NCBI RefSeq assembly: GCF_003334385.1
Contig: NZ_QOWN01000003.1
Length of the DNA: 64,000 nucleotides
Direction: 5' to 3' (one strand)
Source of the DNA: Escherichia coli
GTDB taxonomy: Bacteria; Pseudomonadota; Gammaproteobacteria; Enterobacterales; Enterobacteriaceae
The notes below the pieces were generated by a model. The model saw only the letters and a list, made by a program, of their open reading frames with translations. It had not been told where the DNA came from and ran no database searches. Positions 13,049 through 14,130 of this stretch are shown piece by piece. The position numbers and the translations under genes are program-made. Every line of letters starts with the position of its first letter. Positions within the stretch are counted from its first letter, which is position 1.

Positions 13049-14070
13049 CGACGATAGTCGCGGAACGGGCCGTCAGCCACGGAGCGGCGTTCAATCAAGC
13101 GCGGATGCACTTCAATAGACTGCGGTTCTTCACGTTTGTTGACGATACGATCCAACAGCATGTTGAACGCTGTTTCACCCAGCGAATCTTTTGGCTGATG
13201 GATCGTGGTCAGCGCCGGCGTAAAATAGCGCGCGTTGCGCACGTTATCATAACCGATCAGCGAAACATCCTGCGGGACGCGCAGGCCCATTTCATCAGCA
13301 GCACAAAGTGCGCCCATTGCCATGATATCGCCACCACAGAAGACGGCAGTAGGGCGATGCGGCTGCGACAGGATTTGCTGCATGGCGCGATAACCGGATT
13401 CAGGTTCAAAGTCACCCTGCACAATCCAGCTTTCCGGCACCTTGATCATCGCTTCTTCCATCGCCTTCATAAAACCGGCAAGGCGGCCTGCGCCGGTGTT
13501 ACGTTCCAGCGGGCCGGGGATGACGCCGATTTCGCGGTGACCGCGTTCAATCAGATAACGCCCGGCCATGTAGCCGCCTTCGAACGCGTTATCAATGACC
13601 GCATCGGTGAAGTCAGCTTTTGCTTCACCCCAGTCCATGACCACCATTGGGATATGGCGATACTCTTCCAGCATCGCCAGCAACGGCTCTGGGTACTCAG
13701 AACACATCACCAGCAGACCATCGACGCGTTTTTGCGCCATCATCGACAGATAAGCCCGCTGTTTCTCAAGATTGTTCCACGCATTGCCCAGAATCAGGGT
13801 GTAACCTTTCTGGAAGCAATTTTTTTCAACTGCTTCAATGATCTCGGCAAAATAGGCCGCTTCGCTGCTGGTCGCCAGCAAACCGATAGACTTGGTGTGG
13901 TTAACCTTCAGGCTACGCGCCACCGCGCTAGGGGAGTAGTGTAATTCTTTAATCGCTGCCCACACGGCGTTGCGCGTTTCTTCAGCGACGAAACGTGTTT
14001 TGTTGATCACGTGTGACACAGTTGTAGTGGAAACGTTTGCTCGTTTCGCTACATCTTTTATTGTTGCCAT
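13045..14070 (-). CDS. purR: purine repressor PurR (LacI family)
   Basis: 341 aa; N-terminus [24 protein letters not shown] (LacI-type HTH); PurR-box operators upstream and inside the 5' coding region. Confidence 0.95.
14028..14044. promoter_or_regulatory. PurR box (operator 2) inside purR coding region
   Basis: GTGGAAACGTTTGCTCG, lying in codons about 9-14 of purR; agrees with reported two-operator autoregulation. Confidence 0.65.
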
Positions 14071-14114
14071 TCCATTTCACTCCAGACCCTAACTTCAGCT
14101 CCTGCAAAATCGCA

Positions 14115-14130
14115 AGGTAAACGTTTGCCT
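14115..14130. promoter_or_regulatory. PurR box (operator 1) in purR leader
   Basis: AGGTAAACGTTTGCCT, matching the gcAAACGTTTgc PurR consensus, 45-60 bp upstream of the purR start. Confidence 0.7.

What the first reader, a model, noticed from the sequence alone, without database searches (positions are those of the whole stretch)
14028..14130. purR carries two PurR boxes downstream of its promoter, one inside the coding sequence
AGGTAAACGTTTGCCT (14115-14130) sits in the leader and GTGGAAACGTTTGCTCG (14028-14044) overlaps purR codons about 9-14 (AKRANVS). The coding-region box means the N-terminal protein sequence and operator sequence constrain each other.
Basis: partly seen in the sequence, partly recalled or inferred. 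Interest (0 to 1): 0.3.

Follow-up and report, generated by a model that had tools for sequence, protein, structure and literature searches.

The report
Known purR autoregulation operators O1 and O2
The two sequences are the two long-known binding sites through which the E. coli purine repressor turns down its own gene; the second lies inside the gene's coding sequence and can only exist because residue 12 of the repressor is asparagine.

Summary
The window is E. coli K-12 DNA, with purR on the minus strand (13045-14070).

- **O1:** AGGCAAACGTTTACCT (sense strand) lies at 14115-14130 in the 158-nt leader. It is the best PurR-matrix hit in the 64 kb, at 21 bits.
- **O2:** It covers codons 10-15 (RANVST) and scores only about 12 bits.
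- **Position:** A published transcription start (window 14228) puts the boxes at +99..+114 and +187..+202. [quoted passage not shown]

Both boxes are kept in about 80 Enterobacteriaceae species. The O2 core is the longest invariant stretch in the gene and the most synonymously constrained four-codon window.

The mutual-constraint idea holds:
- Only 0.5% of synonymous encodings of RANVST score as well as E. coli's.
- 44 of 80 species use the single best encoding.
- With Gly12, the state in sister families that lack O2, no encoding gives a box.

The most likely mechanism is two independent repressor dimers blocking elongating RNA polymerase. Novelty: already known. The Gly12-to-Asn link is a modest addition that may be new.

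The parts
13045..14070 (-). purR coding sequence (341 codons plus stop), a LacI-family purine repressor
   Evidence: ORF list. 100% identical to annotated purR in E. coli K-12 MG1655 and other genomes.
14115..14130 (-). Operator O1 (sense strand AGGCAAACGTTTACCT), in the 5' untranslated leader. It lies at -60..-45 from the ATG and +99..+114 from the transcription start.
   Evidence: Exact match. 21 bits, the top PurR-matrix hit of the window. Named as the motif under the purR ChIP-chip peak in Cho 2011. Present at -57..-60 in all 80 Enterobacteriaceae sequences.
14027..14042 (-). Operator O2 (sense strand GAGCAAACGTTTCCAC), inside the coding sequence at CDS nt 29-44 (codons R10-T15), +187..+202 from the transcription start
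   Evidence: Exact match. About 12 bits. Present at +29 in 79 of 80 sequences. Its core GCAAACGTTTCCAC is the longest invariant run in the CDS. Listed with the same sequence in PMC5110547.
14035..14037 (-). Asn12 codon AAC. It supplies the centre of O2 and sits in the turn of the helix-turn-helix, where relatives have Gly.
   Evidence: AAC in 80 of 80 species. N12 is confined to the group at 87% identity or more, plus one other; about 96 of 120 orthologues have G12. No Gly or Asp encoding can form a box.
14228..14228 (-). purR transcription start site (start of the 158-nt leader)
   Evidence: Kim et al. 2012 (PMC3415461), supplementary file 2: TSS 1,735,710 (+), 5' UTR 158 nt, upstream sequence ...GGCCAAAATTCCACG. 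This matches the window.
14234..14239 (-). Candidate -10 hexamer CAAAAT (inferred)
   Evidence: It lies 5 nt upstream of the mapped start. It sits in a block (G)ACAAAATTC conserved across species. The consensus promoter scan did not call it.
14257..14262 (-). Candidate -35 hexamer TTCCCC, with a 17-bp spacer (inferred, weak match)
   Evidence: Lies within the conserved block CTTCCCCTTTTC. No experimental support was available here.
14080..14083 (-). Shine-Dalgarno GGAG, 9 nt before the ATG
   Evidence: Read from the sequence. Lies within the invariant block GGTCTGGAGTGA.
14003..14030 (-). Predicted SgrS sRNA pairing site on purR mRNA (CDS +41..+68). It abuts O2 and overlaps only its last four bases. 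It is not part of the operator system, but it matters for reading the conservation.
   Evidence: Predicted duplex of -27.9 kcal/mol with SgrS nt 159-187. The SgrS sequence was verified against E. coli genomes. Repression of purR by SgrS through a site in the coding region is published.

Best explanation
These are purRo1 and purRo2, the two operators through which the hypoxanthine- or guanine-bound PurR dimer represses its own gene. Transcription starts at window 14228. O1 lies about 100 bp downstream in the leader and O2 about 190 bp downstream, in codons 10-15. Both are too far from the promoter to stop RNA polymerase from binding. The most likely mechanism is that each bound dimer independently blocks elongating polymerase, as two roadblocks in series, giving mild negative feedback on repressor level. 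O1 is the strong site. O2 is intrinsically weak because it must also encode Arg-Ala-Asn-Val-Ser-Thr in the helix-turn-helix.

- **Shown here:** the sequences, their positions relative to a published start site, their matrix scores, their conservation, and the codon-level constraint.
- **Taken from the literature:** PurR occupancy in vivo, and the requirement for two sites downstream of the promoter.
- **Inferred:** the roadblock mechanism at purR, and the independence of the two sites.
For: - **Identity and position:**
- **Matrix:** O1 scores 21 bits and is the top hit of the window. O2 scores about 12 bits.
- **In vivo binding:** an adenine-dependent PurR ChIP-chip peak covers both boxes. The authors state that PurR autoregulates.
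- **Literature:** the Rolfes & Zalkin 1990 title is confirmed in four reference lists. PMC5110547 gives both exact sequences and says they overlap the PurR operators.
- **Conservation:** O1 is present in 80 of 80 sequences and O2 in 79 of 80. The O2 core is a 14-nt invariant run; the next longest in the CDS is 8 nt. Codons 11-14 rank first of 274 windows for synonymous constraint.
- **Encoding test:**
- **Roadblock precedent:** PurR at the intragenic purB operator (He & Zalkin 1992, cited).
- **Against looping:** the O1-O2 spacing varies from 85 to 88 bp among species.
- **Against an RNA structure:** the leader folds no better than shuffles, z = 0.18, and O1 and O2 do not pair.
Against: - By matrix score alone O2 cannot be told from five chance sites in the window.
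- Cho 2011 assigned only O1 as the motif, and ChIP-chip cannot resolve two sites 88 bp apart.
- I could not read the 1990 footprinting paper. The fold-repression, the relative affinities and the non-cooperativity rest on my recollection of its abstract.
- A roadblock has been demonstrated for purB, not, to my verified knowledge, for purR.
- GalR also occupies this region in vivo. O2 is the best GalR-like site of the window, so part of the constraint could come from GalR.
Confidence: 0.9

Rival explanations
1. O2 is not a working PurR operator. It is a chance PurR-like word produced by the conserved helix-turn-helix peptide, and O1 alone carries autoregulation.
For: O2 scores only 10-12 bits, at or below the weakest ChIP-derived sites, and five other places in the window score as well. 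Cho 2011 lists only O1 as the motif. One Asn12 lineage (L090) has lost the box and kept O1.
Against: - The peptide does not dictate the DNA. Only 0.5-0.6% of its synonymous encodings score this well, and 44 of 80 species use the best of 4608.
- Four consecutive synonymous sites are frozen across 80 species, while flanking codons vary freely. This window ranks first of 274.
- Orthologues with the ancestral Gly12 have no box.
- The 1990 paper's title says two sites are required.
Confidence: 0.04
2. The frozen sequence in codons 11-15 is kept mainly for another factor rather than for PurR. Candidates are GalR or GalS binding to the DNA, or SgrS/Hfq acting on the mRNA.
For: GalR ChIP-chip and qPCR detect binding at purR, with both boxes listed as inferred GalR sites. 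By my own reading of the sequence, O2 read on the + strand (GTGGAAACGTTTGCTC) matches the GalR consensus at all but one specified position. O2 is the best GalR-like hit of the window at 14.4 bits. SgrS is predicted to pair from CDS +41 and represses purR.
Against: - The same study saw little or no regulation of purR by GalR.
- The GalR score of O2 is below all 17 training sites.
- The predicted SgrS duplex overlaps only the last four bases of O2. It is strong only in E. coli: -27.9 kcal/mol against a median of -15.2 across species. The box itself is invariant in 79 of 80.
- The frozen codon choices are exactly those that maximise the PurR matrix score.
Confidence: 0.05
3. O1 and O2 act together by looping the 88 bp between them, as the lac and gal operator pairs do, rather than as independent roadblocks.
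For: There are two operators of one repressor less than 100 bp apart, and both are reported as required (paper title). Other LacI-family systems use loops.
Against: - The spacing drifts among species: 88 bp in 52 sequences, 87 in 21, 86 in 4 and 85 in 3. A phase-dependent loop would not tolerate this.
- 88 bp is about 8.4 helical turns, so the sites are out of phase.
- PurR is a dimer without the C-terminal tetramerisation helix of LacI (established knowledge; the protein ends ...GPFRDYRR).
- Binding was reported as non-cooperative (my recollection of the 1990 abstract, not verified here).
Confidence: 0.04

Closest known systems
purRo1 / purRo2 of E. coli purR (Rolfes & Zalkin 1990, J Bacteriol 172:5758; Meng, Kilstrup & Nygaard 1990)
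   Same: This is the same locus, the same two sequences, and the same arrangement: one site in the leader and one in the coding region, both downstream of the promoter. The window is 100% identical to K-12 here. The sequences match those listed for purR in PMC5110547 and Cho 2011.
   Different: Nothing differs. This is the published feature. My additions are the cross-species conservation, the synonymous-encoding analysis and the Asn12 dependence.
Intragenic PurR operator of purB, a transcriptional roadblock (He & Zalkin 1992)
   Same: It is a PurR box inside a coding sequence, far downstream of the start site, where promoter occlusion is impossible. Repression acts by blocking elongation.
   Different: purB has a single site. 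purR has two in series, one of them untranslated, and the gene regulated is the repressor's own. A roadblock has not been verified by me for purR.
lacO2 within lacZ and galOI within galE (auxiliary intragenic operators of LacI and GalR)
   Same: These are LacI-family operators embedded in coding sequence that must satisfy both the protein code and repressor binding.
   Different: They work by looping to a promoter-proximal operator, through a LacI tetramer or GalR plus HU. PurR is a dimer, neither purR site overlaps the promoter, and the spacing is not phase-conserved.
GalR binding sites at purR (Qian et al. 2016, PMC5110547)
   Same: The same two 15/16-mers are reported as GalR-bound by ChIP-chip. 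O2 is the best GalR-like site in the window.
   Different: No GalR-dependent regulation of purR was seen. The scores are below those of bona fide gal operators.

Membership tests
PurR operator (PUR box) | 16-bp imperfect palindrome resembling ACGCAAACGTTTGCGT with a central CG | tested here: met
   O1 matches 13 of 16 positions and scores 21 bits, above the median of 27 ChIP-derived sites. O2 matches 11 of 16 and scores 10-12 bits, at the bottom of that range.
PurR operator (PUR box) | Occupied by PurR in vivo in a corepressor-dependent way | not testable with these tools
   From the literature only. Cho 2011 reports a ChIP-chip peak at 1,735,528-1,736,095, seen only with adenine, that covers both boxes. 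Only O1 is assigned as the motif, and the resolution is too low to separate the two.
PurR operator (PUR box) | Protected by purified PurR in vitro, with operator mutations relieving repression | not testable with these tools
   Reported in Rolfes & Zalkin 1990, which is not held. Only its title and citing statements could be verified.
PurR operator (PUR box) | Conserved at the orthologous position beyond what neighbouring sequence or coding needs explain | tested here: met
   O1 is present in 80 of 80 sequences and O2 in 79 of 80. The O2 core is the longest invariant run in the CDS and the lowest-entropy four-codon window of 274. The commonest variant is the best of 4608 encodings.
Transcriptional roadblock | Operator lies downstream of the start site, outside the region contacted by initiating RNA polymerase | tested here: met
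   With the start site at window 14228 (Kim 2012 supplement), O1 lies at +99..+114 and O2 at +187..+202.
Transcriptional roadblock | Repression yields transcripts truncated just upstream of the bound repressor, with initiation unaffected | not testable with these tools
   This needs transcript mapping or in vitro transcription. It has been demonstrated for purB (cited). I have not verified it for purR.
Looping operator pair (lac/gal type) | Helical phasing between the two operators is conserved, and the repressor can bridge two sites | tested here: not met
   The spacing is 85, 86, 87 or 88 bp in different species. PurR has no tetramerisation tail (plus established knowledge).

The most novel reading that the evidence does not exclude
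O2 may be an evolutionary novelty of the Enterobacteriaceae proper that needed an amino-acid change in the repressor's own DNA-binding domain.

- In sister families the helix-turn-helix turn reads Ala-Gly-Val-Ser. This holds for Erwinia, Mixta, Yersinia, Hafnia, Pectobacterium and Providencia, and for about 96 of 120 orthologues. No encoding of that peptide can form a PurR box.
- In Hafnia the sequence GCG GGC GTT TCC AC is three substitutions away from GCA AAC GTT TCC AC.
- The Gly12-to-Asn change comes together with O2 and with a stronger O1 (21 bits, against 9-13 bits in the Gly12 families).

On this reading, selection for a second auto-operator drove or fixed a replacement at the normally glycine turn position. 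Asparagine is the other residue that readily adopts a left-handed turn conformation. That would be a case of a regulatory DNA element shaping the sequence of the protein that reads it.

The co-occurrence is shown here. The causal direction is inference, and I do not know whether this has been pointed out before.
Probability: 0.35. Interest if true: 0.45.

Novelty: already known. Interest (0 to 1): 0.15.

Why it matters
As a finding it simply recovers a 1990 result, so it adds nothing about E. coli regulation. Its value is as a worked example. It is a transcription-factor site embedded in the coding sequence of that factor's own DNA-binding motif, and the cost of dual coding can be measured. 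Four synonymous sites are frozen, operator strength is capped at 14.5 bits by the peptide, and one amino-acid state (Asn12) is a precondition. It also shows that matrix thresholds alone would miss O2, a real site, whereas synonymous-site conservation picks it out clearly. That is useful for calibrating scans for intragenic operators.

Tried and rejected
- **Original papers.** I tried to read Rolfes & Zalkin 1990 (PubMed id and PMC526892), He & Zalkin 1992 (PMC207401) and Bobrovskyy & Vanderpool 2016 (PMC4996119). None is held.
- **Papers that gave no operator detail.** PMC3266220 turned out to concern the purM operator, not purR. PMC10912719, PMC2263017 and PMC2760140 gave no positional detail.
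- **Promoter scan.** The consensus scan found no sigma-70 promoter on the purR strand upstream of O1. The promoter is weak, so I located it from a published start site instead.
- **RNA-structure explanation.** The leader folds no better than shuffles (z = 0.18), and O1 and O2 do not pair in the minimum-energy or centroid structure. Rejected.
- **Leader terminator.** The terminator-like hairpin at 14191-14177 shows no compensatory changes across 80 species. I did not pursue it.
- **SgrS as the cause of O2 conservation.** Rejected. The duplex starts at +41 and is strong only in E. coli.
- **Searches not run.** I ran no further search on Vibrio or Pasteurellaceae. The absence of the auto-site there is taken from a review citing Ravcheev 2002. 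My belief that those orthologues have Gly12 is from memory only.

Full report
**What is in the sequence.**
The window is E. coli K-12 DNA. A 1.7-kb stretch around the finding is 100% identical to MG1655 and many other genomes, and it is annotated punR - purR - cydH - ydhP. purR lies on the minus strand at 13045-14070. The first box, AGGTAAACGTTTGCCT, occurs once, exactly at 14115-14130. On the purR sense strand the boxes read AGGCAAACGTTTACCT (O1, -60..-45 from the ATG) and GAGCAAACGTTTCCAC (O2, CDS nt 29-44). O2 covers codon R10 (positions 2-3), A11, N12, V13, S14 and T15 (positions 1-2). It is therefore codons 10-15, not 9-14.

**Is it more than chance?**
- The 10-mer GCAAACGTTT occurs only twice in 64 kb, both times here and on the same strand.
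- I built a position weight matrix from the 27 PurR ChIP-chip motifs in Cho et al. 2011, Table 1, leaving out purR.
- O1 scores 21 bits. It is the best hit of the window and lies above the median training site.
- O2 scores 10-12 bits, at or below the weakest training sites. Five unrelated places in the window score as well.
- A matrix threshold alone would therefore miss O2. About 0.03 sites of that quality are expected within 300 bp of O1.

**Position relative to the promoter.**
The consensus scan finds no promoter on the purR strand. The supplement of Kim et al. 2012 (PMC3415461) gives the purR start site at NC_000913.2 1,735,710, with a 158-nt 5' UTR and the upstream sequence ...GGCCAAAATTCCACG. 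This maps to window 14228. O1 is therefore at +99..+114 and O2 at +187..+202. A weak -10 (CAAAAT, 14239-14234) and -35 (TTCCCC, 14262-14257) lie in blocks conserved across species; these two hexamers are inferred.

**Literature.**
[quoted passage not shown] The paper itself is not held. Cho 2011 found an adenine-dependent PurR ChIP-chip peak covering both boxes, named O1 as the motif, and stated that PurR autoregulates. Qian et al. 2016 list both exact sequences as GalR-bound by ChIP-chip and say they overlap the PurR operators. PurR is an established roadblock at the intragenic purB operator. From memory of the 1990 abstract, not verified here: autoregulation is two- to three-fold, both sites contribute, binding is non-cooperative, and O1 binds about six-fold tighter than O2.

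**Conservation.**
I fetched purR loci from 80 species of Enterobacteriaceae, with 92-100% protein identity.
- O1 is present at -57..-60 in all sequences analysed, at 18-23 bits in all but one.
- O2 is present at +29 in 79 of 80. In 44 it reads GCGCAAACGTTTCCAC (14.5 bits). In 34, including E. coli, it reads GAGCAAACGTTTCCAC.
- GCAAACGTTTCCAC (CDS nt 31-44) is the longest nucleotide run conserved in at least 97.5% of species in the whole gene: 14 nt, against 8 for the next.
- Codons 11-14 have a summed synonymous codon entropy of 0.19 bits. The average is about 1.04 bits per codon. This window ranks first of 274 four-codon windows.
- The flanking codons K9, R10 and T15 vary freely.
- Within E. 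coli, 5338 of 5425 genomes are at least 99% identical over the 121 bp that hold both boxes.

**Mutual constraint, quantified.**
I enumerated all 4608 synonymous encodings of RANVST.
- Only 0.5% (uniform weighting) or 0.6% (weighted by codon usage recalled from memory) reach the E. coli score.
- The variant used by most species is the single best encoding possible, at 14.5 bits.
- The protein therefore caps O2 well below O1, which fits its reported lower affinity.
- With Gly or Asp at residue 12 the best achievable scores are 4.8 and 6.8 bits, below every training site.

Among 120 PurR orthologues of 79-96% identity, Asn12 is confined to the group at 87% identity or more, plus one metagenomic sequence. 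About 96 have Gly12. The DNA of Gly12 orthologues shows no box at the O2 position (-16.6 to -0.5 bits). This was checked in Erwinia, Mixta, Yersinia, Hafnia, Pectobacterium and Providencia. At the O1 position these have only a weaker box (AGGCAAACGATTAACA-like, 9-13 bits), or none in Providencia.

Hafnia reads GCG GGC GTT TCC AC, three substitutions from the Enterobacteriaceae sequence. A divergent Asn12 metagenomic lineage (L086, 80% identity) has both O1 (21 bits) and O2 (14.5 bits). There are two exceptions:
- One Asn12 lineage (L090) has lost O2 through synonymous changes (GTA TCA) but keeps O1.
- Another (L089) keeps O2 while only the core of O1 remains.

O2 thus requires Asn12, but Asn12 does not guarantee O2.

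**Rivals examined.**
- *RNA structure.* The 230-nt leader plus early CDS folds no better than shuffles (z = 0.18), and O1 and O2 do not pair.
- *SgrS.* The sRNA is known to repress purR through a coding-region site. I verified the SgrS sequence against E. coli genomes. The predicted duplex is -27.9 kcal/mol at CDS +41..+68, touching only the last four bases of O2. It is strong only in E. coli, with a median of -15.2 across species. It cannot explain the invariant box.
- *GalR.* O2 is the best GalR-like site in the window, at 14.4 bits, but it falls below all 17 training sites. No GalR regulation of purR was seen. GalR may add a minor constraint.
- *Looping.* The spacing varies from 85 to 88 bp, and PurR lacks a tetramerisation tail.

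**Verdict.**
The most likely mechanism is two independent PurR dimers blocking elongation at about +100 and about +190, giving mild negative feedback. The roadblock step is inferred by analogy with purB. The link between O2 and the Gly12-to-Asn replacement in the helix-turn-helix turn is the only part that may be new. Its causal direction is untested.

Noticed in passing
window 14003-14030 (minus strand; purR CDS +41..+68): There is a strong predicted pairing site for the sRNA SgrS (-27.9 kcal/mol with SgrS nt 159-187) immediately 3' of O2. E. coli carries five synonymous differences from the majority of Enterobacteriaceae in this stretch. The predicted duplex is much weaker elsewhere (median -15.2 kcal/mol against the E. 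coli SgrS seed). SgrS control of purR may therefore be specific to Escherichia.
   Followed up: partly
L088 (NZ_CP178859.1, E. coli HB101 assembly), locus 913-2064; corresponds to about window 14050: This HB101 assembly has an IS30 element inserted at the very start of purR, between O1 and O2. The annotated purR CDS there starts inside the end of the IS element. This strain's purR is therefore probably disrupted or rewired.
   Followed up: partly
window 14177-14191 (minus strand, purR leader, about +38..+52 from the start site): A terminator-like hairpin followed by a T-run sits in a conserved block of the leader upstream of O1. Across 80 species I saw no compensatory changes, and such hits are expected by chance at about 0.9 per region.
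   Followed up: partly
window 14281-14286 (minus strand) and 14369-14458 (+ strand): A perfect TATAAT hexamer lies on the purR strand 53-58 nt upstream of the mapped purR start and is not used by it. It sits in the divergent promoter region of the 29-codon gene cydH (ynhF, 14369-14458), whose own start site maps to about 14331. It is poorly conserved.
   Followed up: no
protein P0037 (ENA metagenome): This is a PurR-like protein, 84% identical over its full length, whose N-terminus ([40 protein letters not shown]) looks like that of the ribose repressor RbsR rather than PurR. It may be an assembly chimera or a recombinant.
   Followed up: no
window 45235-45250, 63684-63699, 60957-60972, 48154-48169: These other PurR-matrix hits score 12-14 bits, as good as or better than O2. 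They are probably chance matches, but I did not check them for conservation or gene context.
   Followed up: no
window 14041-14043 (purR codon 10): E. coli and 33 other species use CGA for Arg10, a codon that is rare in E. coli (my recollection of codon usage). This makes O2 2.6 bits weaker than the CGC variant used by 44 species. I did not examine why the weaker, rare-codon form persists.
   Followed up: no
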